This document shows positions 33,801 through 62,099 of a stretch of DNA of 64,000 bases, piece after piece. Source of the stretch: Tubiluchus corallicola (taxonomy: Eukaryota; Animalia; Priapulida). Below the pieces are notes generated by a model that saw only the letters and a program-made list of their open reading frames with translations, was not told the DNA's origin and ran no database searches. The position numbers and the translations under genes are program-made. The stretch lies in NCBI GenBank assembly GCA_030141605.1, contig JAQGDQ010000221.1:186001-250000 (forward strand), given 5' to 3'. Position 1 is the first letter of the stretch. Each line of letters opens with the position of its first letter.

Positions 33801-35970
33801 AATTTTGTGGACAGAGTACACGACCACATACTGTGAGAATTTTTTAAACAGTTGCAGAATATTACAATAAAAACAGTATGAGAACCTACTGCTAATGTTG
33901 AATGACTGTGCTAGAATTAGATGTCAGCTCAATTTCCAGCATAACCGGTCAAGATGAGACAGAAGAGATGTCTAATTTGTTTTGAATATAAATGTCCTGC
34001 CTCACCAAAAGGCCCAAAAGCAGAGCTCGGAAGTCAATTCACTAACCACGCCAAGTCTTCTTGTCACAAGGTCATCTCCAACCGACCGCTTAATACACTA
34101 ATAACACAAAACTATCTCTTTCTAGAGTAAGCCAGATGCTAGCTAACTGATAGCAGCTCATGTAATTCTCATGATTGTGTTTTATAGTTCGTTTATCAAG
34201 ACATGTGCTACGTCGTGTATATAAATATGTGCACCCTGTAGTGGAATTCTGCCATTATTTGAATGTACTGTTGTTATTTCATAGCCGTTTAAACGAGCTG
34301 CCATTTTGTTTGCTTTTTTACACAGATCGTTTTCGAGGATGTGATAGCAGAGCCAGATGGCACGCACAGCTTCGACGGATGTTGGTGCGTCAGCAAGGGC
34401 GTCTTTCAATGTACACGCAACTGGATGTACAGAGTGCTGGCCTGCATAATTGGCATACCCTGTGGACTCTTCTGGGGATGTAACTTTGCCTTGCTTCAGC
34501 TGTCTTACATCTGGTGTTACGGACCATGCGTGAAATACACTACTGTCAAATTGACATGGTTCGGAGAGGTAATGATACAAAACTGTGTTACACACCAAAA
34601 AGTTTGTCGAGAGGCCGGGAAAGAATCGAATCACACATTAACGTTTTCTAACCAGTCTCAAAAGTATTTTAACTTAACGATATGAAAAAGCAGCAAAAAT
34701 AACAGCTGCAGGTTCATCGGATCCTTACAAAGGAAGCCACTGAATGGGCAAGACCGCACTTGTCCTCTGACTTCTAAATACGTGTATGACCAGCAACTGT
34801 AGTGCAACTTTACTTTTGTACAATACGTGTAATGTATTCTGATTGAAATTCCAGTTTCTTTAGATAGAAAAGCAGTCATACGTACAATACATTATTATGC
34901 AAGTAATGTATTTTGGTTGAAATTCCAATTTCTTTAGATAGAAAAGCAAACATATACCCCCAGAGATACATTTTCTGGTAAGCTTTATTCTATTGTCAGT
35001 AAGTGTGGCTGACCAAAGTTTGAAAAAAATGGACCCCGATCCCAGAGTTTTTTCCACTTCATTTATATCTTGTAAAATCTAAAAAAGAGTGCCATAGAAC
35101 AACCAGCTACCAGACAGTTTTGCATTGTTCACCACTTCAACTACATGTTTGTTTACGCAGCAGTTTCAGAATTTCGAAGTTAAGAGCTATTTTGAAGCTT
35201 CAATTTGCAAAACTTTTCAGAAACTGTAGCCAATTCTTGTCGAACCCTGAGATGGCTGACTAAACACAATACGTATTATGTAGTCAAAGCTACATTGGCT
35301 CAGCTTGCTTAAGTGAGAAGCACAGATGCTGCAATACCAGTAAAAATTATACTCTGATGTCTTGGCGGCATCATTTATGTACTCACAACTAAGTAAAAAG
35401 TGTGCCTACTAGTGTGTTCAAAAGTAACGGCAGCAAAACGTCAAGAATTTCAAAGGGATTGTGTAAAACTGAGTGATACACATATTTCTCTCAGAAAAGG
35501 AAAGCTGTCTTTTAAGAAATGAACGAGGAATCATATATGCAAGTACCTAGTAGTGTGTAAAAAAGAGTTTTCAAGTGAGCATCTCATATATACCATTAAT
35601 TGAAATGTAAACGTAGAACTGCAATTGTGTAAAAACAGAAGTATTTGATAAAGCATTTGCATTTTAATTCCATCTGCATGCAACTAGTTATATTTTGTAT
35701 TTGTAAAAAGGCGAAATGATACTGCATTTTTGGCATTTATATCTAGCAAACTAAATGTACATTAACAGCTACTGCTAATGCCACTTGAGTAAAAATTTGT
35801 GCCTATGTAAAACTAAATTTATTTTATGTATTTTTATTTTATTACAGATTTGGAGTTTGGTTGTACGCACAATCCTGGATCCATTATTTGATTCCATCGG
35901 CAGGTGTTTTAACGGTATACGAGTTGAACGAAGAGTGACAACACTGAAGGGAGACGAGCACATTGCTTAA
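21411..35970 (+). CDS. CAV: Caveolin with long charged N-terminal extension, ~326 aa; coding exons 21411-22025, 34326-34568, 35848-35970
   Basis: DRD..VNELVK|IVFEDVIAEPDGTHSFDGCW caveolin signature, hydrophobic hairpin, C-terminal DPLFDSIGRCF; phase-0 GT-AG junctions; the intron after VK matches the vertebrate CAV1 position. Confidence 0.9.
23536..23700 (+). repeat. Dispersed repeat, copy A (copy B at ~25570-25735)
   Basis: AATCTCATACCTAAAACCAAGAATTT..CAGTTTAAGTA shared between both sites. Confidence 0.8.
24740..25140. mobile_element. Foldback/palindromic MITE-like element, ~170-bp arms
   Basis: GGGCACTAAAGTGCAGTATTATGG...TCCAAGTACTC is mirrored by GAGTACTTGGA...CCATAATACTGTACTTCAATGCCC. 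Confidence 0.8.
25570..25735 (+). repeat. Dispersed repeat, copy B
   Basis: Direct repeat of 23536-23700. Confidence 0.8.
27079..27630. mobile_element. TTAA-flanked MITE (Kolobok-like), copy 2, inverted relative to copy 1
   Basis: ttaaAGGAAGACTGGACGATTG ... CAATCATCCGGTTTTCCTttaa; reverse complement of 11853-12313 with an ~90-bp extra internal segment. Confidence 0.78.
30735..31200. repeat. (CT)n microsatellite and pyrimidine-rich tract
   Basis: Seen directly. Confidence 0.95.
34326..34568 (+). CDS. CAV: Caveolin coding exon 2 (signature, scaffolding and membrane domains)
   Basis: FEDVIAEP motif; cacag acceptor, gag|gtaatg donor. Confidence 0.95.
35848..35970 (+). CDS. CAV: Caveolin terminal exon
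   Basis: IWSLVVRTILDPLFDSIGRCFNGIRVERRVTTLKGDEHIA*; ttacag acceptor. Confidence 0.92.
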   Translation: MWSLVVRTILDPLFDSIGRCFNGIRVERRVTTLKGDEHIA

Positions 35971-42960: not shown

Positions 42961-45184
42961 TTAGCAGCATGCCGTGACGATAACGAATTGTATATGCAGG
43001 CTACAGAAGACTAGACCAAACTAGGCAGATGATGCCATCTGTCATGAATCAGCTAAATATTCGCGAGAAATGTAGGGAACAACACTTTTCTTCTTTTTTT
43101 GTTAATGTGGAATTATTTGGCAAGCAGGCGGAGGATTTGGGTCTATTTTTAGCAGACGGAAAAAACCGCTTTTGAGTTAAATTTTTTACAGAGTTTGGTG
43201 ATATTTTGTATCTTTATGAGTTATAATAAAAGCATTTATAGTTCTCATTAATCCATGTGTCTGATGCATCTGTTTTGGCCTGGCTGCGTTTGTTGTTTGC
43301 AGATTGTCTGTTTTGTTTGAAACAAGCGCTTACCTGGATATCAGATGGGCGATGCCCATTTCCCCCCTCGCAAAGGTAAAGTTTTTTGTTACATTTAATC
43401 ATCAATGACCAATGGGAGAAGTGCTACTCGGAACGTAAAAGAAGGGCATTTTCTATACCATCTACATGCAGTGGTGACGGCATGAAGAAAAAACCCACAT
43501 CAGTGACTGAATCGTATTCGGTTAAACCAAGACTGAAACTGTGCAAGACGGCGACTTTTGTGGCAGAAAACATGTTTGGGATAAAGATCATTACCCAGCA
43601 TTCAGAAAAAAGTGTAAAAGTGTTTTGGCTTCAACCATTTCGCAAACAAGTGTAGATATAGACAGTGATGGGCTTTACTTTATGGACTTACTATTAACAA
43701 GCATTGGTGAACTATTAGATTATTTTTATTTCGTTAGCCAAAAGTAATTTTTGGGTACTGTTTGTAACATTTGAAGATATTTCCAACCTGTAAATTTTGA
43801 GTTGCGTAGCAATACATGTTTATTGAACTGGTACCCGGGTACAAATTAACTGCTGTCACTTGGTTTGAACTAATTTTATATTATCAACATTTATGAATAT
43901 TAAAGCTTTATCTTATCATAAAACTGCATAAAATTAGTTTCACGTTTTGTGTTCTAGGAATATGTTGAGTAAAAACTGAGTAGTATGACACACGCTACCA
44001 AACAATAAGAGCGCTGATTGCTCATACTTGATTGTGAGATCCGCCCCACATTACAGACAGAATGAGCCACGTAATAAAAATCAGACAATAACAATTAACA
44101 GCAAAGCCATACAACAGAATTGTAAATACTGTGCAAGAGTCAGACAGCAAATCGTCGGGTGAAATTGTAATGTAGTGACGCATGTAAAGCCATAACTCTT
44201 ATACGTAACAATACAGCAGTTTATTAATAACATATATTAATAATAGTGAAATAACTTGCCTAGTTTTAATATAACACACTGAATATCTTACACTAGCCAT
44301 ACATAAATCTATTAACCATACATTTCACAAAATAACGTAGATGCGGAAATGCATCTTAAAATAATCTTTGCTATGTACAGTAATACTTGATTTAATAAGG
44401 CCATGTTATTCAAATATGGTGTTTACTCTCCCAATTCGAATGATTTATTGTCTTGCAATAAATGATCCACAGACGTGAAACAGCAGATCTAGGTTTGCTT
44501 TGCTTGTAGAAAAGTTTAGAAGAGTGGCGGCTTGTGAATAGGTAATGTGGTACTGCAGCACCCCCTATTTTCACTCAACATTATCGACAATAATCAATAT
44601 AATAAGTTGTTTTTCTTTAATTCTTCCTTTACATCTGTATGGTCCCGAATATGTGAGGTTAATACTGTCTGTTTCACAGTCCAAGTAATGTGGTGTTTGG
44701 CTGTTGTGCGCATGCGGCCATGCGCTCATGTCTGAGATAAGACGTTGCACTTTAGGTAGAAAGAGTACTATCGCTCGTACAGTGTGTTGTCAGTTGTCAC
44801 GTGCTTAAAAACCGTGTACCGGCATATTTGTGAAACTGCGACAATTTAGACTATTCGTAAGCAAACAATATTTTTTGTTTAGGGTTTTATCAAGTTTATG
44901 TATAAATTTTCGTGTGATTGTTTGTTTAAAATTACAATTACAAATTATAACATTAAAATTACATTACGTTTGTTTCGCTTTTGTTACTCACTGATCGTTA
45001 TGAAGCACCAGTATGACTTGATATTAGCTAAATTGTAAACAGCTCTCTAGTGGTGTATGTATCCGTGCACCAAAAAAGCAATTTTAGACCACAATTATAG
45101 AAATCGCCAAGATTACATGAATTTTTTGAAAAGTGGAAAAATGCACCATGAAAAATATATCACGAGGGGCCTCACAAATTCCAT

Positions 45185-45377
45185 TCAAGGAATTGCCATC
45201 ATGTCTAACAGGAAATTTATTTTCTGGTTTAGCCACTGTCTCTGCTTTGTCCGAAGTCCGGTTATCAAGGTTGGCGGCAACTGCGAATACCCGTTAATGC
45301 AGCCGAGGAGAGCTCCGGCGATAGCTGCATTTGTGTTAGCATCTCCACCTCTCATGATGACATCAACAACTGTTGAT
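45185..45377 (-). CDS. ARH terminal exon (GGDANT motif)
   Basis: STVVDVIMRGGDANTNAAIAGALLGCINGYSQLP...DMMAIP*. Confidence 0.92.
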
Positions 45378-48300
45378 CTATAGCAAATGTATGTGCAATT
45401 ATTCCCTAATCAAACTAACAAGCATTTAATGTCAAATTATATAGCTCAAGGATATAAAGTTTTACCGTCCAGGGATTAAAAATCGTCCTAAATAGAACAC
45501 ATGTAGCACAATTAGTGATCTGTGATTATGGAAATCTGCAAGTCAAATGATGTACAACGAATTTAAAGCAAAACCGGACCCAATCTTAAACTCTCGGTCA
45601 AAACAATCTACTCTTTAAAATATTGAAAGGAAGCATCCTATTTTTTTTAAAACTGACTTACGTGAAAGAGGTATTACCACACAAACTTAATTTCGCATTT
45701 GCGCCACTAGTTCCTCGCTGTTACATGCATTTCACTATTCGCTAGTTAGATGGGCATTAACGCCTGTATTTTGGAAAAGCACTGCACAAAAAAGAGGTGC
45801 TGTAGCTCTCAGTTCAGATGCATTAGTTTGTGACAAATTGCACACGTTTGACAGCTTATGTGTGAGCACAGTGGTGAAATTGAAATTGAATTTTTATCTA
45901 AAAACTTGCCTAGTTTTAGTACAACACACTGAATATCTTACAGCAGCACCGCACTTCAATTTTCGCTTTTGCAAACACGTGCAACACACTCGTTGAATAT
46001 TTTTGCTGTTGAAAATTATGTTAGTTTGTGATGTCGTCAATAGTTGGGCAATAGTTAACAAAAAACAGCTTTAATACTAAAAGACAGATGCACAGCATAT
46101 TGCCTTAAATGCTAAACGTATGACGTATTCCAGCAATATAGCTTACCTAAAATCTTTTCTATTTCGCAGTGCAATCACTCCGACAGATAATGGTTTCAGG
46201 ACGAATGAAAGTTTGCTTGGTTCAAGAATGTTCACGCTAAAATCGGAAAAATTTGTTTAGCTTTCTCAGGAAAATCTGTGGCTCTGTGTTGCACAAAATC
46301 ATGGGCTTTTTGTTCATTAATTAATTTCATCTGACAGGAACAAAATTGCTAAAAAATTTAACAAATTACACTCTAACCTCGTTATAATGCCAGATCTGGA
46401 ATACCACTAAATATGGTGCACTATATCAAAGCCATTCCAGTCCGTAACCTCTATTTTGTTTCCTAGTTCATTTTAATATGTCATAAATAATATAATATTG
46501 TCATACCTACAACATCACATGGGTTATACAGTAAATTTTTGCTGCATTAACAAAATCAATGCAGCTGTATAATGCTGTCTCCTGATAAGGGAAATGTGCA
46601 GGCACGCAGCCCACCCATGCTCCCAATGCAACATTACGTTGTACTTTATCTTGGATGATATTATAATGGGGTAAATTTATTATGTAATATGGACTTTCGG
46701 CACAGCAGATACATTGGCGGACAGAGGCTATTTTACATGTAGAGGTCATAATTGCTGTTTTACCTTAGAAATAACATTAGGAGTTAATTGATATGTACGT
46801 AATGGATAGTACGAAACACGCTCAATACGAAAATATATCTGGGTCCCATGAAAATCGTAAAATCGGGATTCGACTGCACGTTCGAAAAATATTTTTACAT
46901 TGTGTAACCAGTTCAATTTTATCACATTTGGTACAACAATGTCCAATCTAAATTGGAAAAATTTTGATAACGACAAAAATTTTAAACAAAGATGGTACAA
47001 CTTCGAGCAATCTTTGAGTACAGTAGTAACAAAATTGTAACAACTGTTGTATAGTAAGTGAGCAAAACAAACCTGTCAAAACTCTTCAAGTTCATATAAT
47101 GTTCAAATTCCTTCTTTTGCTTGAAGTGGGTCAAAAGGTCAATTCCTCGGTGTTTAATGGAAGACAAGAACTGTTCCACTGAGGAAGCACTCGACATGTC
47201 GTGGTCACCCTGTAGCAGCACAGCAACCATCATGGCGACACAAGTAGCTGCAGCAACGCACCGGGGATCAGCGTGGGTGGACTTGCAGATTCGGGCGGCA
47301 TTTTCCGAAATTTCGTCAAGGTTGTGAAAATGAGGAATTCCTACAGAAGCAACTCACTTGGTCACAAAATAAAGATAGAAGAAAATTAAAATTATTGCAC
47401 TATATTAGAGTTAAAGTATTAATCAAATTTTGATAAAGAGTTAATTTGATTACATTAAAACTTTAACATGCTAACATGACAATGTCAATGTCACGTACCA
47501 ATGCCACAGCATTATGTAATTATTTTATTTAAATGCATATAAAAGTGGTAACTTTAATGGAAAAATCGTCCTGTATGCCTATGCGCATAGAAAAGAGTTA
47601 CTCTGGTGCAGTATCGCAAATCAAACTCAGGCTGATTCTTAGAAAATATTCGCTTATCTTTATCCCATCATGTCAAAAAAGGAAAGTCTGGCTCGGGGAC
47701 GCAAAAAACGTGTACAATTTGTGGCTTCACCCATGTAACAAATGATCAAAATGTTAAAAGGGCAGGGCGCCAGAAGTTTTTTTGGCCCCGGTTGCCACAA
47801 GCACTAGCTGTGCCACTCATAATACCTTGCTACCATTACTCTTATTTTTGTGCCCCTAGCAGAAAGTCATATTACACCACGCATTCAACCATTTGCTTAC
47901 CTAGTATCAATGATCTCACTAAAGCTGCATTGTCACATAAATCAAAGTTATCATCAGCAACAGGTATATCTATGCCAGAAGCACAACCATTGCCAAACGG
48001 TCTAGCATTGATAACTTGCTCAGCTACTAAGTGGGGCTTCTGTAAAAAATCTTCATTTTCCAGAACCTGTAATGAGAAAAATTGAAGAGAAATAGATGCG
48101 GTCAAGTGAGGGCAGTACACGATTCATTATCTACCTTTGGCAGGGCAGTTACAGTTTGGTCAATATTATGTGGCTAGTACTAGTAAGGAACTAATAGTTT
48201 AGTTTACCTGCAAACTCAAAACAGTAAAACAGGTAACTCTAGATACCAGCATGTAAGTTTAAACTGTGACGCAGAAGTAAAAGACTCCACCGAAATTGAT

Positions 48301-51300
48301 TAGCATTGACTGTGGGGCAACGCTGAAATTGCGTATCACCTGACGAAAATCGTGTAGCATTTTGTAATGTGACCAGGAATGTTACCGAAACGAAAATTTT
48401 CGATTTGCCGATAATTCAGTGTTTCGATTTGCCGATAACTGCACTTTCGGATGAGTTTCATTTTCATTGAAAATTATTACGTTTCGTGGCCAAAATAATC
48501 GGTAGCATTTTTTCGAGGTTTTAGTTGTATTTATCCAGCTTGTATCCAGCTCAAAAAATGTTGGCTAAAATAGTTCAAATAAAGCATAAATATAGTTTAC
48601 TTAACTTTTTGTACCATTTGTAGCATGCTTTTTATGGGCTTTCTAGTTAAGATTTTTTGCCTAGCTACTTCACCAAGTGTGTATCAAAGCAAATATAAGC
48701 AAACAAGCAAAAGCAAAATATTTCATTTATTTCAGAATTTTTTTAGTTTTGATAGTTAGTTTTGCAAAAATTATTTCAGTTCGGTTTTGTTTCGATATCG
48801 GTTTCCTGTGTTTCAACAATTTTGGATTCGGTTTGTAATTCAGTTTCGGTAACATCCCCGAACGCGACACCGGAAAAATTCAGCTCTCATAAGGTAAACA
48901 ACTGCACATGAATTTACTTCCGTGAAAATTTCGTCATTTGTCCGTTCAACGAGTTATTCATGAAAATAACTTAAAGAAGTAGGCAAATAATAGACTCCCA
49001 AATTAAGAGAGCTAAGATCCATCTACCACTGAAATTATGGCAGCTTGTGCACATCCAGATTCGTTGAAACTTGAAATCTTTTTTTAATAAATGCCAGCCT
49101 GGAAAAAACACTGCACCACGTGTGAATGCCACCATGCGCAGTCGCGCACACCTATATCCATCAATTTTTCATGCTTATCATTATAAAACTCATAATTAAA
49201 TGTAAAACTACCAGTAGTTTATTTATTTTACAATCATCTTTGTTGCAAATAGAATTCAATATAAACTTGCGCACAATTTAATAGTCTTTACAAGAGCAAA
49301 ATTCATTTTAATTATTGAGTTCACAGCAGAAGGTCACAGATACTGAGATACATCAATACTAACAATGCATTAATTTTGAACAGACATTGTGACGAACCTA
49401 GTATGGCTGTCTATGGATCGAAAAACTGGTTAAATTCTTTATTTTTTAAGGTGTTTATGCAATTTATTTTCGTATTCTGCCTTTATGGCCTAACACTCAC
49501 ATTAATTTTCTGATACCACACCTGCACCAATTCCAGTCTGGTATAATGGATATTTTTACTCATTGTGTGCAAGCATGCTAGAGTGAAATATTTACATCAC
49601 TACATCGTCCTGCAAAATCGGGCAGGGAAGATTCAGTGTTGCAACAAAATATGGAAATCAATTTCATTACTTTGGAGCAAGAAGGTATTACTTTTCAAAT
49701 GTTTCATAAATCAAGTTAAACAACTTACCTTAGTAACAGTATTGCTGAAAACAATGCCCTCTGTATCGCCCAGCTCCGGATACCCATGCAAGCTCCAGTC
49801 ATGTAAGCGTTGAGCAAAATCCAGTTCATCCACAACACCGCCCCATTGTATCACAGAATCCAGAACCAGCATCTATTGAAATTTTGCATCAAGAAGTTTT
49901 GCACTTAATACTTTCAACATAAGTAAACTTGCCTTTTGTTTAAGCAATAGCCACAACCTTTTCATTTTATTTAACAGTCAAATACTGGGTCACGTGACAA
50001 ATTCTTTTGCTACTGCAAAGACAGCAAGTTCTGCAAGCAAGAGGTATGTCAGTGCATCAGTGAGCTAAAACAAACCGTAACTGCCACGTGATGTCATCCA
50101 CATTGTTCTTACACCATCTTGCATTTATAAAACACAGAGCTTTCAGAGTTCTACATTTTTCTGTAACCTTCGATTATGATCTTACATGGAACTTCTTCAA
50201 AGAAATCAATGGTTAACCTATCCAAAACGTGCATCCTAACTATTTGCCAACTACAGGGAAAAAAATAAACACACTTTCATCTGGACATGCATATAAATTA
50301 TCAGGAAATCTATATACAGTACGTCCTTGTTTAACGACTCCCTGTTTAGTGATGCTTCGTTTTAACAAAGCTGAACGTTTAATAACTTTTTCACTTAATG
50401 GCATGCGTTTTGTTTTAACGGTGATTTTTCTACTTTGCTTGAAGCCAATTTTTATTTTATCTGCAACTTTTTTACCTAATTTGATCCATTAAAACAGTAC
50501 AGATTGCATTATTCTGTTCTAAAAATGCATTAGTAACGTAAACAGTGCAATTATTATACAAGTATATGTTTTTGATGCCCGACTGACAACTAAATGCAAG
50601 AGGTTTGTCTCAATGGAATCCTGGGAGCAAACTTTACGCAAGGAATTTTACCGCCAACCTGTAAGCATCTAGATAAAATTCTCAAGGTTGCCTAGGGCTT
50701 GGGTTTGACTCTGAGGTTTTATGTTTACCGCTGCCTAGGCTTAAACGTTAAAGATAGAGAAACCGCTGGCTAGGTAAGTAAGATATGAGGATGGTTTCAA
50801 GCAAGAAGAAAGAGATTAATCAGTAGAAACATGAGTAAAACTTATAAAACGTTTAATTTATTTGATTTAACCAACTTTGATTTCTACCTCAAGAATGTAT
50901 CTCAATTCTTTTACATTACTTTCTATGGAAGTCTTGGCCTCGTTTAACGACATTTTGTCAGAACACATTAATGTTGTTAAGCGAGGACTTGCTGTATCGT
51001 AAACTTTGAGGACATATGAAAAATTATATATCATACACTTTCAAGTTTATGGTCCTATTCAGTTCACATAAACCTCTAAACAGGCAAAGGTGTCTCAGCC
51101 ACACTCATGTGAATAGCCAGGATCGGCATGACTCACAAAATCATGCATAAATACAGTAGGTGCCCCTTAATAGACTCTTTTTGGAACCGAATTGTTTTGA
51201 CCCAATTAACCAACTGAATCTATTAACTGATGGGTGTAGCATTATTGGCATACAAGAATGGATCATCAACTTACTATGCACTGCACAGATTCTTAATGAA

Positions 51301-54300
51301 TTTTAGAAGTGAAGTAATGCCTAAATTCCTTTGCGCAGTTAAAAATAAAAAAATATTTTAAAATATTAATTTATATAAGTGAATTAGCAATTAATTACAA
51401 AAGTATCCTTTTCTAAATCACACAAGTCTTTAATTTATATAAGTGAATTAGCAATTAATTACAAAAGTATACTTTTCTAAATCACACAAGTCTGTTTATT
51501 TGCAAAAATTACAAAACATTCCTTTAAAGTCGGCTGCTTCATTTTGTCACGAAGAAGTTGGCTCAAAAGTTCTCATAATTATAAACCCATGTTGAAAATC
51601 TGTTGCCGTGTGATGCACGTATTCTCGTAAAACATTTAGCGCTTGGCGTGCTTGAGCTGCAGTTTTTCAAACTTCTTAACTCTTTGCTCTTATTTGCTGT
51701 ATCATGTTTACTCTTGTAAGTCACAAGTAATACTGGCTGATTACTGTGACCACATCTTTGATTGTTAGCTGATTAAGCGTGAAAGTGTGATTTGCAATGA
51801 GAACTTCAAAACGAAACATCTAGACAAATGATTGAAGTTTAGCTTCCAGAAATTCTTGTTAATTGCAGTTGACGAGCAGGTAACACAAACTAAGCAAAAC
51901 CGCTACCTTAGCGTATTAGTGCATGATAAACGTACCTGCTAACAAACAAAACGGTACTCAAGATGATTGCTTCTACCTATATTATAGCACACAAAAGCGA
52001 AGTAAAGAACTCATAAGTAGGAAAGGCTCTTTGAGCACAAACAAATGTCTTATTTTAAGTAGGTTAGAGAAAAAATATTGAGTCAATTATGTGGAGTTAA
52101 TCGAGTCAATAACCGACAGCTTTTATATACATTTGAATAGAAGCGGGCCATTCCAGGCATTTTTGAGTCAATTAAGTGACTGAGTCTATTAACCGTAAGT
52201 CTATAAAGTGGCACCTACTGTCGTAAGATTTAAGTATTACCAGGTTACCATCTGATCAAAATCTGTTGTCCAATCTCCTTTCTTCCACTTCACACGATGC
52301 TGATCTCTGACAATGTCACTGTAAGTTAAGCAGCTGGGATCATAATGAAAATTACACTCATCGGGGGACATGAATTCAGTAGCCATCCCAAGTGCATCTC
52401 CAATTGCTGCTCCATAAATCATGCCTAGATGAACAGTAAAGTAGATTACTAGTGTTTCCATTGGGTACCTAAGTAATTACACACTTTATTTATGTTCCAG
52501 CAATGAAAATGCTGACATTATTATAATATTAAATATTGTAATAGGACATCTATTGTTAGAGAATTTAAAATTTAAATGTCAACTTCTGCTGTGCGCTTTT
52601 ACAGTAGGTACCTACTAGCAAAGTAATAAGTCTTAACTGCAGCGTTGGCAGTGCGCCAGGCCAAAAGCCATTGGAGAGATGGCAGATCAAACCATTTCTG
52701 TCGTAGGACTTACAAAAAACAAAACTATGATTTCTTTACTAAGAGGGTAATTATCTCAATAAAATTGTTTATTAATCTTTAAAAACCCATTTCAGACGAC
52801 TAATAAAGTTTTGAAAAGATGGATTGTTAGGTTTAACAGCACACAGAATAATATAGATTATTTTATTCTCCTGATCGCTACCCTGTATTAATAGTGCTTG
52901 GTGTTGGTACTTAGTAGGGTGACGTAGATGAATCATTGATAAAGGCTGCAATTAAGTAACTGAAAAGTCTGGCCAGATAAAAACTTAGTCACACGCCTTG
53001 TGGGGGAAAAACAATAACATTCACAACTCACACCTCGTGTATTCTGGCTCTTACAGGTCTAATAAGTGAATGTTTGTACAGTTAGTCAAAATGCACCAGT
53101 GATTGTTTCTATTTGTAAATATAACTGATTACAGTTTCTTCACTCCCACTGAATCTTAACAATCGGGTATCTGACGGGTATAAGCAACAGGGTAACCGGG
53201 TCTGATTTTTTCTTCAAATTACTAAGAAAACATGATTTTTAACACATACACAAGTAGTAATGATATTAGCACATGCCAGGCACACTTTATGAACTAGACT
53301 ATTGAAAATAAGCAGTGGTGCTGTCCTCTATTGGCCAAAAAGTTATCATATATGCTCCAAAATGCCTAACAGTAGTTCCTACCAGGGGCATAAATGTCCC
53401 TTGGGGGTATGAGACAGCTAAATGAAAGTTGTGTCATGTAACATGTCAGAATGTTCTTGTTTGCCGCACAGCATACATGTACGGAGTGGTGTGAGGAAAG
53501 AGTATGATACAAGGTTTAAATCCCTAAACATCATGCTTCTCTGTATTTTTAAAAGTCATTGTCTTTCCAAAAAATAGCATTTTTTGGGTAATCCACTGCA
53601 CACTGACTGCCTGTCGTTATAACGGGGTTAATTTATTATGTAATATAAGACATTTGGCACGGCAAATGCATTGGTGGATTGCGGTAGACGAGGTTGGCAG
53701 TTTTCGGAAAAGCCAGCATCAACGAGGCGGCCATTGAGGCTACTTCACAGTTCAACTGCAAGTTTGTCTTCTGATTTTTTTTCTTACATTTTGTTCTTGA
53801 AGTCGGTGTTTTGTTTATCAGTTTTGCTTGTATAATCAAATGACGCTTGTATAGTTAAATCATAGTAGTAAAAAATTTTCTCTTGAAATTCATATTACTA
53901 AAAATGTTAAGGGATAAGTGGCAGATCACTGAATTTCGAAAAGGTACTAGGCTACTAAAAGGTTAGGAACCACTGGCCTATAGCCAAAAAGTTGGAAAAA
54001 CTTGTAAGAAGGACTATTACTGTTATCACTAAATGTACACTGTAGTCTGCTGTATTGAGACTTTTGTTATCTACCCAATACTTGCAAGATGCTTTGAATT
54101 ATACCACACAAAATAAAACTAATTTTCAAAGGGTGTGACAAAGATGGTGTTTGTGGCAGCAGTGGAAATTATGGGGGGTGGGCAGAGTTGTCAACAGCAG
54201 TGGTAACAATGATACTTGTGTCAATTAGGGGTGAGCATCGAACGTTGGAATTAGATTCGAACGAGTTTATTTCATTCGAATTCGATTCAAACCTAAAATT

Positions 54301-57300
54301 ATAGATTCAAATAATTCAGCACTTCAGCCACATATGTTCTTTATCATTAAAATGTTTGAAACAGTATAAAGTTAGCACAACTTAACTGCAGTTTTTGTGC
54401 AAAACTTTTAACAAACTAATAGTAGTTCTACTGCAGAACAAAATCAAGTAACATGCATGATCTTTGTAAGAAAACTTTTTACTACTGATTCGAAAACTTG
54501 TTCAAAAATCTTTCAAACTCAATTGGAATTCGATTCGGATTCAAAATACTGAAATTTGGTTCGATTCAAATTCAAAAGTCACAAATTCGATTCATTTCGA
54601 ATTCGCCTGCTAGTAGAGACAGCTCACCCCTAGTGTCAATAAAATTAATGGTGATGAAGCAAAAGTTCCGGTAATGTGGTAGTCTGTGCTAGTACATGTA
54701 ATAGCAGTGACTTTTCCTTGTCATAAAATATTCCACTACATCAGCTACAATACAAATAGTGCAGCGGTGAAGAGGTTAAAACTAGAAGCAAGAAAGACAT
54801 TCGGTGTGACGTCAAAAGTTTCTTACTTGGTCAGCACAACAGCACAGCTAGAATTGCAATTTAGTATTTAACTAATACTCAAGGCAAGTTTACCAACTAT
54901 TTTATCCCGCAGGTCATTGGCATCTAGTTTGCTAGCACCACTAGGTGGGAGCAACGGAGTTTTTATCCGGCTAGCAGTATGCAGCGTTTGTGTTTGTGAC
55001 TGGACATACTGCGCTCGAGCAGAGTCTGGATTCGTAACGGACGACTGCAGAATATTACCTGAAAAATATCTGCTGTGATATGAAATAATAGAACTTTAAA
55101 AAAAAAATTATTTGAATTTTATTATATATTTAAAAACAAGAATTTATATATTTTCAATGAGGCAAAAAGCAAAGCATGCTTTATAATAGACACAAGATCT
55201 TACACAGTATAATATAATAAATGTGCAAAAAACTTTGTCTACTTCGGAGCTCATTGCTATTAGAGAAAAATTAAGAAGAATAAGCGGATGGCTTCTTTCA
55301 ACTTTAAGGAAAAATCCATGAACATTAGGCGTACGCGTCAAACGTTCGAGTTGAAACGAATTTGATTAGATTTGAACAAGTTTGTTTAATTTGAATTCAA
55401 TTTGAAGCTAAAATAATAGATCTGAATACTTCAACTACTTACGTTTTTTATCATTAAAACAAGTGAAACATTATACAGTTACCATAATTTAGCTGTGACC
55501 TTTGTGCACAATTTTTAAACAAATACCGCTTTTTATTTGTGATTCAAAAATCTTCAAAACTGAATTTGAATTCGGAGTTTGGTTTGGTTTGAGCTCAAAA
55601 TTCAAAAATTCGATTCGAATTCGTTTCGGATGCTCACACCCTAAAGAATACACAAGGATTGTGTATACACATTCAAACCCCCCTAACAAATACACAAGGA
55701 TTGTTAATTGTTAATTTGTGACATTTGGGATTGTTTATGACACTATTTCATCCTGATAGCAAAAAAGAGCAGTAAAAATGTTAGTGACATTCTAGATTTT
55801 GCACAATAGATGTTTTTAAAATAAAGTGCAATAGATGTATGCATAATAACACCAACAATTTTAGTTTTAATTTTATAAAAGTCAGAGTATTTCTAGATGT
55901 TTATTAAAAGTGCAAAGGATATTCAAACAGAAACATGCAAAGTTACGCCAGATATCACCTTTTCTCTAGGCAAGTATCAGTGTTGAAAAGTGAACATAAC
56001 AAGAACCGTATATACAAGTAGTGTGCAGACATGAAACACAGGAAGCCGATATTAAAAATGAAACCGAACAGCAACATTTTTGCAAAAGTAACTATCACTA
56101 AAACTGAAAAACGGAAAATTCTAAAATAAGTAAAATTTATTTGTTATGATGCAAAATTACTGATAAAAAATTCTAACACAAAATGAACAAGGAAGTTTTA
56201 TAGTGTAGAACCTCAAGTTTGAGGAGTGGCTTATCCTAGGAAATGTGTTATAATGTTTTTAATTTAAGTATTTTTAATGATTAATGTTTAAAGATCATAA
56301 TGCTTCATTAAAAATAAACAAATTGTATATTGCAGATATTTTGTTGTGTATATATCATAAATTATAAAATTAAAGAGACCTAGAGACCTTAAAACTGCAC
56401 AGTCCTCAGCACTGAAGATATGCCACATTGACGGTAAAAGCAAGCCCAAATTATTGTGAAAACAAAACTTTTGTTTTATTTTAACTAATTTAGTCAAAAT
56501 TTTTCAGCTTTTTCGGCAGCTAGGAGAAAATGTAAAATGGATAAATACTAGTAAAACCTCTGACAAATGCTGCCGAAATTTCTGCTACAAAATATTGTAA
56601 ATTTTGCCGAAACTGAAAGTGCAAATATCGGCAAACCGAAACGAAACCAGCAGACAAGTGGTATTTGTTGCAAATTTGCCTCTAGACTTTGTAAAAACTA
56701 ATTAAACTGCATTTATACACAAAATTGTTAAGATGCCTGTTCACATGTTTTACCTCGGTGTCGTGGAAACACGTTTAGTTTTGGAATATCACGCAACGGC
56801 TTGTTTAGACTTTGACGGCGGAGAAATTTCAGCAATATGGCCGAGCCTTGATCACAGATGGATTGCGGAGGGTTATGACTCCTAAAAGAGCAATCTTGAC
56901 GGTAGATAATAGAAAGCTTATTTATGCATAAATAATCTTAAGAAGACTTGAAAGATTTGTGTTACAAAATCAGTAAATTTTACATAAATTTTCAACTTTG
57001 GCTGATTAGATATATGACTAAAGCAAAAATACACCTTTTGATAAAACAGCATATGCCAATAGGCCTATGGAATACAATAGAGTCAGTTATGGATTAGTCA
57101 AATTAGTGTATAATCACAAATATATAGTATTTAGTATACATAGCATACTTCCAGTAACACAGCATTCACAGAATAAATCCTATAAACGCAATATCCTATA
57201 AACAAAAAAGCAATATTAAATTATAAAGTCTGAAAAATTTTTCACAGAAAAACATCTGGAAAAACCGTGCCTTAATAAATCTGCAATAATCTACTAACAC

Positions 57301-59141
57301 GATGCGGTGTGGAAATAATTAAATTTATAAATTTACTAATACAAATAAATTGCATCGCTCATTATGCAAAACAAAAATTAACATACTTTTTATGACCAAT
57401 TTTATGAAACATTTGTAATTCGTTCTCACAGGTGGAGGAGAATACTTATTCTTCACGCTTAAGCAGCAGTTCAGTAGAAACTACAGAGATTTCCTTGTAC
57501 TTTTGTCTGGCAATAGCGGCTATCTTCATTCTGCATCATACTGACAAAGTATAGAGGTACACTTTGATACTGACACGCATATGTCAAGTACACATTTTTA
57601 GTGTCACTTTAACTGTCATGTATAACTCGTATAGATAAATATTTTCAACGCAGTAATATGTTTATCTGTCGCAGCTTACTCATTTATGAATCATTATGAC
57701 AAACAAACTTGTGTTTCACAACTAGCAGCTATTTAAGTATACAGCGCTGAATGCACTAAAGCATTTACTAATTTCAATTATTAACGACACTTTCTCTTGT
57801 CTCCATTAATTGTATAACTTCAATATCGTGTTTATCGTTCAAAATAATTTATCATAGATATCGTATTGTCTAAAAAATAATTCACCATTATCGTATCATT
57901 GGAAAAAAGTGTCATATCACCAAATTTGTGTTGTTTAACATCCCTAATCCTGATCGCTACAGGCTAAGGGTAAGAAGCCTTAAAATGAGACATTATTCTG
58001 GTGCTGCCATCTAATTCTTATTAGCAGTGCCAATCAAGGCCCGAACCACAAACCATTTTTGTGTTAATGAACAGCCACAGTTAATTAGTTAATTACCAAA
58101 ACCTATTAAATTCAAACCTTTTTACCAGGGGATACTAGATTCTGACACCCACCTGTTATTGCTAGCCAAAATTACTTCCAAAGTCTCCGATCTTCCTAAC
58201 GATTCAGGTAAATTCTTCAGTTTATTATGGCACACGTTGAGTCGTCTAAGACATTCCATTTCACCCATCTCTTCGGGCAATTCGCGAAGTGCATTATGAG
58301 ACGCGTCTACTTTTTCTAGCTTCACCAACCGTGTAAAAGATTCTGGTAACTTGGTTAGCACGTTGTGTGTAAGAATTAACGTTCGCATGTGGAAGAACAA
58401 ACCGAAACTTTCCGGTAGCTCAGCAATTTGATTGTAGCTGATGTTGAGGTGGCATAGGTGTGGAATCCTGAGCGGCAATTCAATTGGAATACATGTTATA
58501 CGGTTGAATGAAACATCCATTCTTTCATAGAGAGAGATTGAATCAACAATTTCCCACGGAATGTCTAAAATACATCGTTCGCTGTACTCTCCTTTGATAT
58601 GCTAGAATGGTTAAGTAAGAAAGTAGAATGCTAAGCATTGTGTAATATATAAAAGTGTTGACATAAAAATAAGCCTTTTCACTGTTCCAGGGATTGACGA
58701 TGATTGTAAAAAAATCAAAGGTTAAGTGTACCAGACAACACATCTGTGTACACTTGACAATGCCTTGCAGCCCATGCTTTTGTAATAGTAACAGTTTTAA
58801 CAACTAGCTAGAACTTCACCTAGTTCATTTTTTCTTGTTCCCAAGCAACATCCTGTTAGTAAATCAGTCTATGCACAGACTAATGTATAGTTAAGTAAAG
58901 TCCAAGTAAAACAACTGAAGTTACAGAACTTGGGCAGACGGCTTTGCTTTACCTACATCAGATGAAGGTTACAATTAAGACATGTTGCTATGGCACACTT
59001 AACCTTTGAGCTACAGCCACTCTGCATGCGCAGTAGAATGGGCTACAATAGAAAAATCCATCCTACACAATGGCGTAAAGAAAAGTTGAAACATACCTCC
59101 TATTTATACAAAAATAATTTTAAAAAACTTACTGTTACCAT
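45185..59141 (-). CDS. LRR + ADP-ribosylglycohydrolase (ARH/DraG family) fusion, ~595 aa; exons 59141-59133 (tentative), 58601-58153, 56881-56754, 55058-54894, 52424-52249, 49872-49729, 48066-47901, 47340-47073, 46236-46147, 45377-45185
   Basis: All junctions GT-AG and phase-consistent in one frame: LRRs, PPQSICDQG cap, linker, GMIYGAAIGDALGMATEF, GDWTTDFDQM, DFAQRLHDW, DNAALVR, THADPRC, GGDANTNAAIAGALLG. Confidence 0.85.
46147..46236 (-). CDS. ARH exon
   Basis: VNILEPSKLSFVLKPLSVGVIALRNRKDF; ttttag and gtaagc; phase 2/2. Confidence 0.82.
47073..47340 (-). CDS. ARH exon (THADPRC)
   Basis: GIPHFHNLDEISENAARICKSTHADPRCVAA...NLKSFD; ctgtag and gtttgt. Confidence 0.9.
47901..48066 (-). CDS. ARH exon
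   Basis: VLENEDFLQKPHLVAEQV...DNAALVRSLIL; ttacag and gtaagc. Confidence 0.88.
48374..48860. mobile_element. hAT-type MITE
   Basis: TIRs CAGGAATGTTACCGAA ... TTCGGTAACATCCCCG; flanks AATGTGAC / AACGCGAC (8-bp TSD differing at two C/T positions); many CCGAAA/TTTCGG subterminal motifs. Confidence 0.75.
49729..49872 (-). CDS. ARH exon
   Basis: MLVLDSVIQWGGVVDELDFAQRLHDWSLHGYPELGD...VTK; caatag and gtaagt. Confidence 0.9.
50317..50994. mobile_element. Tc1/mariner (pogo/Tigger-like) MITE
   Basis: ta-CAGTACGTCCTTGTTTAACGAC ... GTTGTTAAGCGAGGACTTGCTG-ta. Confidence 0.7.
51154..52220. mobile_element. Tc1/mariner (pogo/Tigger-like) non-autonomous element
   Basis: ta-CAGTAGGTGCCCCTTAATAGACT ... AGTCTATAAAGTGGCACCTACTG; repeated GAGTC(A/T)AT subterminal motifs. 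Confidence 0.72.
51366..51493. repeat. Tandem duplication, 2 x 64 bp
   Basis: TTAATTTATATAAGTGAATTAGC...AAATCACACAAGTCT repeated almost exactly. Confidence 0.92.
52249..52424 (-). CDS. ARH exon (GDALG and WTTD motifs)
   Basis: GMIYGAAIGDALGMATEFM...KGDWTTDFDQM. Confidence 0.92.
53370..53975. mobile_element. hAT-Charlie-like MITE (old)
   Basis: CAGTAGTTCCTACC ... AGGTTAGGAACCACTG termini; TSD not clean. Confidence 0.55.
54226..54632. mobile_element. hAT-type MITE with perfect 8-bp TSD
   Basis: GTGTCAAT-TAGGGGTGAGC ... GCTCACCCCTA-GTGTCAAT; TTCGA subterminal repeats. Confidence 0.9.
54894..55058 (-). CDS. Linker exon leading into the ARH domain
   Basis: GNILQSSVTNP...RIKTPLLPP...DLRDKIV; tttcag and gtaaac. 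Confidence 0.85.
55326..55643. mobile_element. Older copy of the same TTCGA-rich hAT MITE family
   Basis: Collinear similarity to 54226-54632; ends GATGCTCACACCCTA. Confidence 0.7.
56754..56881 (-). CDS. LRR C-cap exon
   Basis: SHNPPQSICDQGSAILLKFLRR...FPRHR; ttttag and gtaaaa. Confidence 0.85.
58153..58601 (-). CDS. LRR exon (~5-6 repeats of LxxLxLxxNxLxxLP)
   Basis: DVSFNRITCIP, LNISYNQIAELPESF, LILTHNVLTKLPESF, VDASHNALRELPEEM, LNVCHNKLKNLPESL; ttctag acceptor, gtgggt donor. Confidence 0.92.
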
Positions 59142-59680: not shown

Positions 59681-62099
59681 ACAACGAAGCGGGAGAGGGA
59701 AGGGAGGTTTGGAGTGGGGAGTAGGTAGAGTGTTGGCAGTGGGACTGATATAGTAAGTTAGTAGGGTGTGGGGAGAACCACCTAAACTGCAAGTCTGCCT
59801 CAGCTACAAGCCTCATACACAGAACAACAAAAACTGTACAGTATGACAGATTCTGACCTTAATAAATTGCTTCTGGTTAACTTTGCGACTCAAATCCAGC
59901 ATTTGCCTTTCATCGTGACGCACTGGAGAGAGATCAGTCACTTCCACGTTACCCATCATTTATTGGATGATTTTCGCTAAGTAATAACATAGTGATTTTC
60001 AACTGGCATGTGACGTGTTGAATAGAATTTCTAGTAAAAAAACGATATTAAGATAAAAACAAATTCTATAGATATTATCTTCTTTACTAATAGTAATAAT
60101 AATTTTGAGGCAACATCAGTCACTATACAATTATATTAACACAGGCTAATATTGTTGATTAAATCATGTTTATTTATTACTCCTTTTATACCTGAATTGT
60201 ATCATTTTGAGAGCCATCACAGGTGGTTGTACTGACCGATATATTCAGAACGATCAAGGAGTGACTGACACTCAATAGAGTGTAGACTGTGCAGTAGTTT
60301 ATAAATACAAAGTAAGTGTACAGTTGAAATATTAACAATACCTCTAATGACTGAAAGAGCTTTGCTAGCTTTTACTGATAGTTTGACAATGTGGGGATGA
60401 AAGGTTAATTAATACAACATTTACTACCCATGCCATGTTAAAACGTCGTATGGCACCACCAGTCATCACTCATCAATCTTCACAAGCTTTCTATTCGGGC
60501 GCGTTTTCTTTATGCAATGGATATTGAAGTACAATGGGAAAATCAGTTTTGAAAATTATGGGAAAGAGCTATCATCCTATTTACCTTTCAAACTAACTAA
60601 GTAGATGATGATTTATCAGGAATTTAAATTTCACATTAGCGAAAATTAATTAAATGTGTCTTTCTTATGAAAATATCACTTTAACTTCTTATTATTTTGT
60701 TTCTGCTTCAGTCAAAAGATTCAATTCACTATTGCTAACAAATTATTTTAGGTAAATAAAAAACCATTTTGCATTTTCAGCCTTATTTTAATGGAAACAA
60801 TTAGACTTATGTATGGCTGAAATGTATTATGATTGTAAACGTGTTGATGCTAATTGCTGACTATCTAACTTTGTTTAAGAGTGTAAACAAAATCTTTGAT
60901 GTTCACAGTTGATACCCTTAATTGTGACCAACAAAGGTTGATTTCTGTTTATATCAGAATCAATAACAAGATTTAAAAAAATTCACACTGGCAAGAATTT
61001 TTTTAAATTTCTGGGCGAAATTTTGTAAACCTCAGTAATTAAGATCTCAAAGATGTCTGCTTCAAAAGTTGTTTTACTTTAGTGCACATGCAGTTAAGCT
61101 AGTTGCATACAAAAAGGTTCTTGAATTGCAAGCTTCCATGCTAACTCCAAATATCATTTTTGCAAGCACATCTTCCCTAAGCAAGTTAATCTTTCTAGCT
61201 GATCATGTCAATTCTCCTTTACTGTGCCATTTAAAATGACATTGTACCTTGCGTAATTTTTTTTAACAGATTGTAAAATATTGTTAAAAAAACTCCAGGT
61301 CAACTGCTGTTAGGATAAAGAGATCATTTTTCCCTTCTCTCTTATAGTATTGTTCCATTCATTACTCCACCCAATTCCAAATATGCTATACCTCACACTT
61401 AGGAACTTTGTCATCTTTTCTCTGCTTTCAAAACCTTTGTATGTGTGTATCAGCCTTTGACAATGGCGGCACAATTGTAGCTGCCGATATTAACACAGTT
61501 ACATATTAGCTCAGCCATTAACTGAAATTTCGATCAATAATCGATAGCTTATGGCAGTTATCTGCAGAAAATAGTGCAAAATTAATGGCTAGTAATTTGA
61601 AGTACTATTGTAGTAGGCCTATTATACTTCCCTGCAACTAAAAATCATGCCTGTTATAGAAAACAGAAATGGATGTACGAAAGTGCTTAATGTCCGTAAG
61701 CTAATTTAAAAAAGACAAATTTTGCATTCAATCCCTACTAAAAGGCTTATAAGAATTACATAAAGCTTACAAAAAAAATTTCCAAAGCATATGATGTTTA
61801 TTACTGTGCACAAAGTATTCGCTACATGAAAAAGTTAAATGCACATACCGCATATACTGAGGAATTAATATTAAACTGTAAAAGTTCTAGCACACATAAT
61901 TGAAGGCGTAAATGAAACTTACTAAATAGTTCAATGTTTACTATTGTTCTGTTAACGAAGCACAAAAACAAATAGAAATTACTTAGAGAGTGACATTATA
62001 AGAAAATTTAATAGGTTTACAAAGTTATAGGAAAAATTACTGAACTACAATTAAATGAAAATAAGTTGCTTTAAGAAACTGTTAATAAGTAAAGGATTC

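What the first reader, a model, noticed from the sequence alone, without database searches (positions are those of the whole stretch)
45185..59141. LRR-ADP-ribosylglycohydrolase fusion gene
Seen: phase-consistent exons join ~5-6 LRRs plus a PPxxIxxxG cap to a complete ARH/DraG-fold domain in one ~595-aa frame. Known: characterised members (ARH1-3, DraG, SelJ, jellyfish J1-crystallins) are stand-alone domains. Inference: an LRR-targeted ADP-ribose eraser or reader, for example a cytosolic sensor of proteins modified by microbial ADP-ribosylating toxins or host PARPs. I do not know of a characterised protein with this architecture, though unannotated orthologues may exist.
Basis: partly seen in the sequence, partly recalled or inferred. 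Interest (0 to 1): 0.8.

Follow-up and report, generated by a model that had tools for sequence, protein, structure and literature searches.

The report
Invertebrate LRR–dead ADP-ribose eraser fusion
This unnamed invertebrate gene joins a protein-docking module (leucine-rich repeats) to an ADP-ribose-removing enzyme domain that keeps its metal-binding residues in sponges and some protists but lacks part of them in every cnidarian and bilaterian copy examined, so here it is likely an inactive, probably membrane-tethered adaptor rather than an enzyme.

Summary
The fusion is real: a 10-exon minus-strand gene (59956–45185) encoding 625 aa, with an MG start, six LRRs, a linker and an ARH/DraG-fold domain. 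Unnamed orthologues occur in ten animal phyla, from sponges to amphioxus, and form one clade that roughly follows the species tree. The "eraser" reading fails the active-site test: two of five acidic metal ligands are replaced here (T334, N576). None of 74 scored cnidarian/bilaterian orthologues keeps all five. Sponge orthologues, 20 of 21 LRR-ARH fusions outside the animal clade and 33 of 34 stand-alone animal paralogues do. Bilaterians have also lost glycine-loop and purine-side residues, and a conserved linker motif appears on the branch where the ligands decayed. Best reading (0.6): an LRR-targeted hydrolase, still intact in protists and sponges, became a conserved pseudoenzyme adaptor, probably myristoylated. 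No activity, partner or LRR-to-ARH splice junction was shown for this species. Ten paper searches found no description. The scan earlier noted an LRR plus intact ARH gene in another genome.

The parts
59858..59956 (-).
   Evidence: tblastn with Lingula, Ridgeia and Acanthaster orthologues; GT donor, phase 0; MG start in 71 of 82 animal orthologues
58153..58601 (-). Exon 2 (aa 34-183): rest of the N-cap and six LRRs (aa 57-183)
   Evidence: Pfam LRR_8 E 4.9e-15; 61% identity to Lingula over this exon; six strands in the orthologue's model
56754..56881 (-). Exon 3 (aa 183-226): LRR C-cap (PPxxIxxxG), variable stretch, start of the conserved linker
54894..55058 (-). Exon 4 (aa 226-281): conserved linker (aa 227-256 motif seen in cnidarians and bilaterians, not in sponges or protists; then a Thr-Pro-Leu-x-Pro stretch) and first ARH helix
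   Evidence: 69% identity to Lingula; conservation 0.69 over aa 219-264; profile test
52249..52424 (-). Exon 5 (aa 281-339): ARH start; E297 kept (52375-52377), T334 in place of Asp (52264-52266), D335 kept, F336 in place of Thr/Ser
   Evidence: PF03747 E 1.6e-11; motif tallies
49729..49872 (-). Exon 6 (aa 340-387): orthogroup-specific W349-L356 patch; glycine loop changed (V380, S382)
47901..48066 (-). Exon 7 (aa 388-443): variable insert; D432 gained, N433 kept, A434 in place of Gly
47073..47340 (-). Exon 8 (aa 443-532): T464-H465 kept
   Evidence: PF03747 E 1.6e-9; spliced contig in X2
46147..46236 (-). Exon 9 (aa 532-562): S542-F543 in place of the Gly-Tyr motif
   Evidence: both junctions bridged by one X2 contig
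45185..45377 (-). Exon 10 (aa 562-625 and stop): D574 kept (45341-45343), N576 in place of the bridging Asp (45335-45337); conserved C-terminal helix
   Evidence: PF03747 E 7.4e-10; junction bridged in X2
59133..59141 (-).
   Evidence: reads through to 595 aa; no orthologue match

Best explanation
The gene encodes one 625-aa LRR–ARH protein whose ARH domain lacks two of five acidic metal ligands, so it is likely a catalytically dead pseudoenzyme that probably works as a lipid-anchored adaptor, predicted to bind partner proteins rather than remove ADP-ribose. Shown: gene structure, both folds, the broken metal motif here and in all scored cnidarian/bilaterian orthologues, the intact motif in sponge and protist fusions and in separate animal paralogues. 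Inferred from mutagenesis of ARH1/ARH3: no hydrolase activity. Inferred from conservation: the N-terminal glycine is myristoylated and holds the protein at a cytosol-facing membrane; the LRR, the linker motif gained on the cnidarian+bilaterian branch and orthogroup-specific ARH surface patches bind partners, while the stand-alone paralogues carry the hydrolase activity. The partner is unknown.
For: All five ligands kept in 0 of 74 scored cnidarian/bilaterian rows against 189 of 202 other rows; the bridging Asp (576) kept in 0 of 75 and both Asp of the TDD motif in none. Rack 2018 (PMC6309922, passages): motif E..[T/S]DDT..DxD[T/S]; mutating one Mg ligand abolishes ARH1 and ARH3 activity. Sponge orthologues Corticium and Sycon keep all five; 20 of 21 LRR-ARH rows outside the animal clade and 33 of 34 named stand-alone animal paralogues do too. 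Substrate-side residues are lost in bilaterians: G380 5 of 68, G382 2 of 72, M437 0 of 70, G542 7 of 67; an Asp at 432 in 71 of 71 and in 0 of 206 other rows. The fold is kept (pLDDT 85; Z 35.3 and rmsd 2.2 over 294 residues to MJ1187) and so is the sequence (40-58% identity to 11 orthologues). Linker aa 219-264 is as conserved (0.69) as the LRRs (0.65); its 227-256 motif scores in the six cnidarian and arthropod rows checked and not in 3 sponge or 24 other fusions. MG start in 71 of 82 animal orthologues against 22 of 174 relatives without LRR. Precedents for non-catalytic ARH folds: ADPRHL1 (PMC4990356, PMC7390403) and ArhL (bioRxiv 2024.09.02.610899).
Against: No assay, partner or localisation. 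This copy is among the least decayed: E297, T333, D335, D574, T577, N433 and H465 remain, so one metal might still bind. H465 is kept in 71 of 71 and N433 in 63 of 71 bilaterian rows, which could mean a ligand still binds. ARH3 D77/D78 mutants keep ADP-ribose binding (PMC11488344, passage). This protein has Val at position 6 and fails the recalled PS00008-type myristoylation pattern that 52 of 82 orthologues meet. The linker profile was trained on cnidarian/bilaterian rows, so their scores are partly circular, and the linker is low-confidence in the model. Residue equivalences rest on alignments; no coordinates were inspected.
Confidence: 0.6

Rival explanations
1. A non-catalytic reader: the dead cleft still binds ADP-ribose or an ADP-ribosylated residue, and the LRR adds specificity for the modified protein.
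For: H465, N433, T333, D290 and D337 stay conserved in the dead clade; ARH3 D77/D78 mutants bind ADP-ribose without cutting it; cnidarians keep G380, N-G, M437 and the aromatic at 543 in 4 of 4 rows; the modified cleft of ADPRHL1 is essential (PMC7390403, abstract).
Against: In bilaterians the glycine loop, G542 and mostly the aromatic at 543 (19 of 67) are changed and an Asp stands at 432; this copy also has G434A. Rack 2020 says correct substrate positioning needs both metals (PMC7050489, passage). The replacements differ among lineages, as in relaxed selection.
Confidence: 0.17
2. A still-active hydrolase with one metal or an altered substrate.
For: This copy and 8 others keep 3 of 5 ligands; Thr and Asn can still be polar ligands; sponge and protist fusions are intact, so the architecture does suit an eraser.
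Against: 55 of 75 scored animal orthologues keep only 1 of 5 ligands and 3 keep none; no replacement set is shared; single-ligand mutants of ARH1/ARH3 are dead.
Confidence: 0.08
3. An innate-immune decoy or sensor: the dead ARH domain is bait for microbial ADP-ribosyltransferases or their targets and the LRR signals.
For: Nearest solved relatives include the immunity chains of ADP-ribosyltransferase toxin/immunity pairs (6dre/6drh, 8za7); intact fusions occur in phagotrophic amoebae; no vertebrate is named in three hit lists.
Against: No NACHT/NB-ARC, TIR or death domain among the Pfam families listed for any orthologue; LRRs are conserved, not diversified; the tree roughly follows the species tree with no expansion seen.
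Confidence: 0.08
4. A targeting or regulatory subunit of the active stand-alone paralogue: the dead ARH pairs with the live one and the LRR brings substrates.
For: The same animals keep intact paralogues; tandem two-ARH proteins have a degenerate first and an intact second domain in Sinanodonta P0184 and Saccoglossus P0333.
Against: Tandem domains group with the stand-alone paralogues, not with this clade; nothing here shows ARH-ARH pairing.
Confidence: 0.05
5. Two neighbouring genes (an LRR gene and an ARH gene) joined only by prediction.
For: The LRR-to-ARH junctions of this species were not seen in a transcript.
Against: 21 Logan-only rows encode whole 608-667-aa fusions on contigs of 1,976-4,413 nt, which points to spliced single transcripts in relatives; exons 3 and 4 match the orthologues' linker continuously.
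Confidence: 0.02

Closest known systems
Tri1 / DraG / MJ1187-type ADP-ribosylglycohydrolases (Pfam PF03747; PDB 6dre, 2woc, 1t5j, 8za7)
   Same: Same all-helical fold; best sequence and structure matches (E 2.8e-20 to MJ1187; Z 35.3, 34.4, 33.7). NCBI labels the Corticium orthologue 'Tri1-like'.
   Different: These are stand-alone microbial proteins with an intact metal motif; this one has an MG start, an LRR domain and a linker, and a broken motif.
Vertebrate ARH1 (ADPRH) and ARH3 (ADPRS)
   Same: Same fold (Z 28.8 and 32.6) and homologous motifs.
   Different: Active, single-domain, more distant in sequence (ARH3 E about 1e-3); no LRR.
ARH2 / ADPRHL1 pseudoenzyme
   Same: ARH fold kept without the critical aspartates, with an essential non-catalytic role (PMC4990356 passages, PMC7390403 abstract). 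The closest functional analogue.
   Different: Vertebrate, heart-specific, modelled on ARH1, no LRR. This clade comes from another subfamily, so the loss of activity is inferred to be independent (ARH1/2 were not in my trees).
ArhL of the Chlamydomonas Orf2971-FtsHi import motor (8xks chain Q) and 6sga chain FP of the trypanosome mt-SSU assemblosome
   Same: ARH folds found as subunits of large complexes (Z 32.3 and 25.3); ArhL keeps the catalytic residues only in part (bioRxiv 2024.09.02.610899, passages).
   Different: Unrelated complexes and lineages; neither entry title names an LRR; 16-18% identity.
Multi-domain ARH3-like proteins of protists and sponges (zf-UBP, zf-RanBP, WD40 fusions; Perina 2014, PMC4245714)
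   Same: ARH domain with an added targeting module; Capsaspora zf-UBP-ARH belongs to the same subfamily.
   Different: That paper has no occurrence of 'LRR'; the zf-UBP fusions seen here keep all ligands (10 of 10).
Small cytosolic LRR adaptors (RSU1, SHOC2, LRRC8 LRR domain)
   Same: LRR domain of the same class (Z 18-20).
   Different: No ARH domain; the match is generic to LRRs and names no partner.

Membership tests
ARH/DraG fold superfamily (PF03747) | Profile match above the curated cut-off | tested here: met
   Three exons each pass the 26.2-bit cut-off (44.8, 38.3, 39.4 bits)
ARH/DraG fold superfamily (PF03747) | All-helical ARH fold | tested here: met
   Model of the Lingula orthologue, not of this protein: Z 35.3, rmsd 2.2, 294 aligned to 1t5j
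Active ARH hydrolases (ARH1, ARH3, DraG, Tri1) | Binuclear metal motif E..[T/S]DDT..DxD[T/S] | tested here: not met
   T334 and N576 replace Asp, F336 replaces Thr; 0 of 74 scored cnidarian/bilaterian rows complete; motif from PMC6309922
Active ARH hydrolases (ARH1, ARH3, DraG, Tri1) | Buried Gly and His that bind the pyrophosphate | tested here: inconclusive
   His465 kept, Gly434 is Ala here (Gly in 47 of 71 bilaterian rows); Tri1 also has Ala at this place in the alignment
Active ARH hydrolases (ARH1, ARH3, DraG, Tri1) | Metal-dependent hydrolysis of an ADP-ribosyl bond | not testable with these tools
   Needs an assay
ARH2/ADPRHL1 orthologues | Descent from the ARH1/ARH2 branch | tested here: inconclusive
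   ARH1 is absent from the 18 sequence hits and ranks below MJ1187, Tri1, ARH3 and DraG; ARH1/2 were not in the trees
Leucine-rich repeat proteins | Tandem LxxLxLxxN repeats with caps | tested here: met
   Six repeats at aa 57-183
N-myristoylated proteins | Gly at position 2 and a small residue at position 6 (pattern recalled from PROSITE PS00008) | tested here: inconclusive
   Gly2 present and conserved (71 of 82); position 6 is Val here; 52 of 82 orthologues meet the pattern
NLR-type immune sensors | NACHT or NB-ARC nucleotide-binding domain | tested here: not met
   None among the Pfam families of the 71 rows; the 625 aa are accounted for by LRR, linker and ARH
PIDD1 (label given to three orthologues) | ZU5 and death domains after the LRR | tested here: not met
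   No such family listed for P0147, P0157 or P0182; the label is inferred to be an automatic transfer from the LRR match

The most novel reading that the evidence does not exclude
An ancient membrane-anchored, LRR-targeted ADP-ribose eraser of protists and sponges was switched off on the branch to cnidarians and bilaterians, gained a new linker motif there, and has since served as a dedicated sensor or decoy for ADP-ribosylation signals at membranes: a second, older animal ARH pseudoenzyme that vertebrates, flies and worms appear to lack.
Probability: 0.15. Interest if true: 0.8.

Novelty: new variant of a known kind. Interest (0 to 1): 0.5.

Why it matters
Animal ADP-ribose erasers are described from three vertebrate single-domain ARH proteins. 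This points to a further ARH orthogroup in at least ten animal phyla, with a docking domain, that no paper found here describes, probably because no vertebrate, fly or nematode member turned up. It gives a natural series for how an enzyme becomes a pseudoenzyme: intact in sponges, metal site lost in cnidarians, substrate loops lost too in bilaterians. Each step can be tested with proteins from Sycon, Nematostella and amphioxus. The intact protist and sponge versions are candidate substrate-targeted erasers in their own right. Function remains unshown, and the architecture is already visible in automatic annotation.

Tried and rejected
No whole genome is held for this window, so copy number, paralogues and synteny in this species were not checked. 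No listed holder is on record as RNA; run X2 (RNA by guess) has no cover on exons 1-6, which says nothing on expression. A first guess for exon 9 (46330-46147) gave stops and was replaced by 46236-46147 from tblastn and the X2 contig. A possible extra exon at 57080-57260 has stops in all three frames. Ser184 where orthologues have a hydrophobic residue or Cys looked like a wrong acceptor, but the spacing equals that of Lingula. 'NAA' instead of 'NGA' is not by itself a sign of inactivity, as Tri1 has it. A complex prediction of the LRR half against the linker-ARH half gave no verdict (not folded), so whether the two domains pack together is open. The ESM Atlas search gave only generic LRR clusters (scores 0.77-0.78) and ARH clusters, no cluster with both; only clusters of 50 or more are searched. 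One origin of all LRR-ARH fusions is neither shown nor ruled out: the LRR label outside the animal clade needs 4-6 changes on the trees, starred branches force only 1; the trees are unrooted. Absence from vertebrates, tunicates, nematodes and holometabolous insects rests on three searches limited to about 8,000 candidates each and is weak. One review sought by PMC id was not held. Two further look-ups in the scan's notes were blank. Supplements were not read; sequence alignments in the supplements of PMC6309922 or PMC4245714 could list an LRR-ARH protein.
Full report
Gene model. The window is intron-rich animal DNA (GC 0.36). tblastn with four orthologues and splice-site inspection give ten minus-strand exons: 59956-59858, 58601-58153, 56881-56754, 55058-54894, 52424-52249, 49872-49729, 48066-47901, 47340-47073, 46236-46147 and 45377-45185. 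All nine introns (560-2,469 nt) are GT..AG, and the frame runs 625 aa without a stop. Exons are 44% GC, introns 34%. Pfam places LRRs in exon 2 and PF03747 in exons 5, 8 and 10. One contig of run X2, RNA by guess and with several other letters per exon, joins exons 8, 9 and 10 exactly as modelled. The LRR-to-ARH junctions were not covered. In relatives, 21 Logan-only rows encode whole fusions of 608-667 aa on contigs of 1,976-4,413 nt, from which I infer single spliced transcripts.

Distribution. A search with the Lingula linker and ARH part returned 71 proteins, 68 with both LRR and PF03747 families. Named members across searches come from Porifera (Corticium, Sycon), Cnidaria, Priapulida, Arthropoda (ticks, spiders, crustaceans, odonates), Brachiopoda, Annelida, Mollusca, Echinodermata, Hemichordata (a partial model without LRR) and amphioxus. 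All are 'uncharacterized' or carry labels transferred from one domain. No vertebrate, tunicate, nematode or holometabolous insect is named among them, but these searches scored only about 8,000 candidates each. On an ARH-domain tree of 210 rows (FastTree) 77 animal fusions form one side of a branch (100), with the sponge outside cnidarians plus bilaterians. An IQ-TREE quick tree of 61 hand-picked rows agrees: animal fusions 100, cnidarians plus bilaterians 95, this protein sister to Priapulus caudatus 98, at 62-64% identity. The trees are unrooted.

The fusion is not confined to animals. A profile search of 1.84 billion representatives gave 143 new proteins among the best 150. Of the 61 longer ones I scanned, 27 have LRR plus ARH and 10 have zf-UBP plus ARH. 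Named LRR-ARH proteins outside animals come from Diphylleia, Anaeramoeba, Balamuthia, Pelomyxa and Protostelium. Four unnamed fusions lie next to the animal clade and share its LRR C-cap (25-42 bits). One origin for all fusions is not ruled out and not shown.

The active site. Rack 2018 (PMC6309922, passages) gives the metal motifs E..SDDT..DSDS (ARH1) and E..[T/S]DDT..DTDT (ARH3) and reports that mutating one Mg ligand abolishes activity; Rack 2020 (PMC7050489, passages) names ARH3 Asp316 as the bridge between the ions. Here E297, D335 and D574 are kept, but T334 and N576 replace aspartates and F336 replaces the Thr; I take 576 to be the bridging position by alignment. Over 76 cnidarian and bilaterian rows, this protein and unnamed rows placed by the tree included, 74 could be scored at all five ligands and none keeps all five; none keeps D576 or both aspartates of TDD. 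Of 206 other rows, 202 were scored and 189 keep all five. Corticium and Sycon orthologues keep all five, as does an unnamed sponge-like protein (P0407). So do 20 of 21 LRR-ARH rows outside the animal clade, 10 of 10 zf-UBP fusions and 33 of 34 named stand-alone animal paralogues, among them one from Lingula itself. Rows under 280 aa in the domain were left out (3 of 74).

The decay is graded. Sponges keep every site scored. The four cnidarian rows keep D334, G380, N433-G434, M437 and the aromatic at 543 but lose D335, D574, D576, G382 and G542. Bilaterians lose D334 (0 of 71), G380 (5 of 68), G382 (2 of 72), M437 (0 of 70) and G542 (7 of 67) and carry an Asp at 432 (71 of 71, against 0 of 206 other rows; sponges and cnidarians have Ala, Ser or Thr before the Asn). 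By motif alignment these lie in the pyrophosphate and purine-binding parts described for ARH1/ARH3; this mapping is inferred, with no coordinates inspected. H465 (71 of 71) and N433 (63 of 71) persist, which keeps a reader role open.

What is conserved instead. AlphaFold2 on the Lingula orthologue with 60 rows gives mean pLDDT 85 and pTM 0.70: an N-cap, six LRRs, a low-confidence linker and an ARH domain. Foldseek ranks Tri1 and DraG first; the wide search ranks MJ1187 (Z 35.3), a Listeria ARH immunity protein, Tri1, ARH3, ArhL, DraG and ARH1. Among 63 full-length rows, weighted conservation is 0.65 for the LRRs, 0.69 for linker aa 219-264, 0.22 for the stretch before it and 0.55 for the ARH domain. 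A profile of aa 227-256 scores 14-33 bits in six cnidarian and arthropod rows checked and at most 0.1 in 3 sponge and 24 other fusions; five of the six were in its training set. Nineteen ARH columns are conserved in the dead clade and not among active relatives; several are shared with sponges, so they mark the orthogroup, not the loss of activity. An MG start is found in 71 of 82 animal fusions, 13 of 22 other fusions and 22 of 174 relatives without LRR; this protein has Val at position 6 and fails the recalled myristoylation pattern.

Mechanism. Shown: one gene, two folds, a broken metal motif, conservation over the cnidarian-bilaterian split (more than 550 million years, recalled). Inferred: no hydrolysis; a lipid anchor; protein binding through LRR, linker and ARH surface. 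I put 0.6 on a membrane-tethered pseudoenzyme adaptor, 0.17 on an ADP-ribose reader, 0.08 each on residual activity and on an immune decoy, 0.05 on a partner of the active paralogue and 0.02 on two genes.

Comparison with what is known. It belongs to the PF03747 fold superfamily but fails the defining test for an active ARH. It works most like ADPRHL1/ARH2, which lost three of four aspartates and has an essential modified cleft (PMC4990356, passages; PMC7390403, abstract), and like ArhL (bioRxiv 2024.09.02.610899, passages). Perina 2014 (PMC4245714, passages) lists zf-UBP, zf-RanBP and WD40 fusions, with no occurrence of 'LRR'. Ten paper searches (seen as listings) found no description of the fusion; term look-ups in PMC7050489, PMC11488344, PMC10789625, PMC3417536, PMC3482391 and PMC8003356 (passages) showed none either. 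Most subscription papers and all supplements were not seen.

Verdict. A real, widely conserved, uncharacterised invertebrate gene; a new variant of a known kind. The new point is the loss of the metal site on the branch to cnidarians and bilaterians, with intact forms surviving in sponges and protists. Interest 0.5.

Noticed in passing
proteins P0200, P0205, P0208, P0212, P0214, P0226, P0230, P0236, P0254, P0305; P0355 Balamuthia: A zf-UBP (ubiquitin-binding zinc finger) domain is fused to an intact ARH of the same subfamily in 10 of 61 long hits scanned, including Capsaspora; noted for Capsaspora by Perina 2014. A candidate eraser for ADP-ribosylated ubiquitin or ubiquitinated targets (inference).
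   Followed up: partly
proteins P0233, P0252, P0299, P0301, P0324: Other fusions of this ARH subfamily: NADAR-ARH, Macro-ARH, dual-specificity phosphatase-ARH, ARH-metallophosphoesterase and cREC-ARH.
   Followed up: no
proteins P0184, P0186, P0333: Tandem two-ARH proteins in Sinanodonta and Saccoglossus; in P0184 and P0333 the first domain is degenerate and the second intact.
   Followed up: partly
one search list: Stand-alone intact paralogues occur in several copies in molluscs (Mytilus californianus 3 rows, two each in Ylistrum, Mizuhopecten, Haliotis cracherodii, Elysia chlorotica); some rows may be isoforms.
   Followed up: no
window 34293-34682 (+), possibly with 21315-22085 (+): A caveolin exon (PF01146, E 2.2e-26); the upstream ORF is a Glu/Lys-rich stretch that may be its long N-terminal exon. 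It lies on the opposite strand to the fusion gene.
   Followed up: no
window 2279-3319 (+): A 346-codon open frame with a hydrophobic start and a long acidic, low-complexity body; no Pfam family above cut-off.
   Followed up: no
window 54321-54418 and 55428-55525; 51366-51493; 44250-44297 and 45900-45947: Dispersed and tandem repeats in introns and 3' flank; high summed contig depth in run X1 over several introns points to repeat elements of the genome.
   Followed up: no
window 56878-56881 (-): Tandem acceptor (TAG then GAG) at exon 3; the first keeps the spacing of orthologues, the second would drop one codon.
   Followed up: partly
window 59957-59962 (-): A second in-frame ATG lies directly before the Met-Gly start, itself preceded by a stop; its use would move the glycine off position 2.
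   Followed up: no
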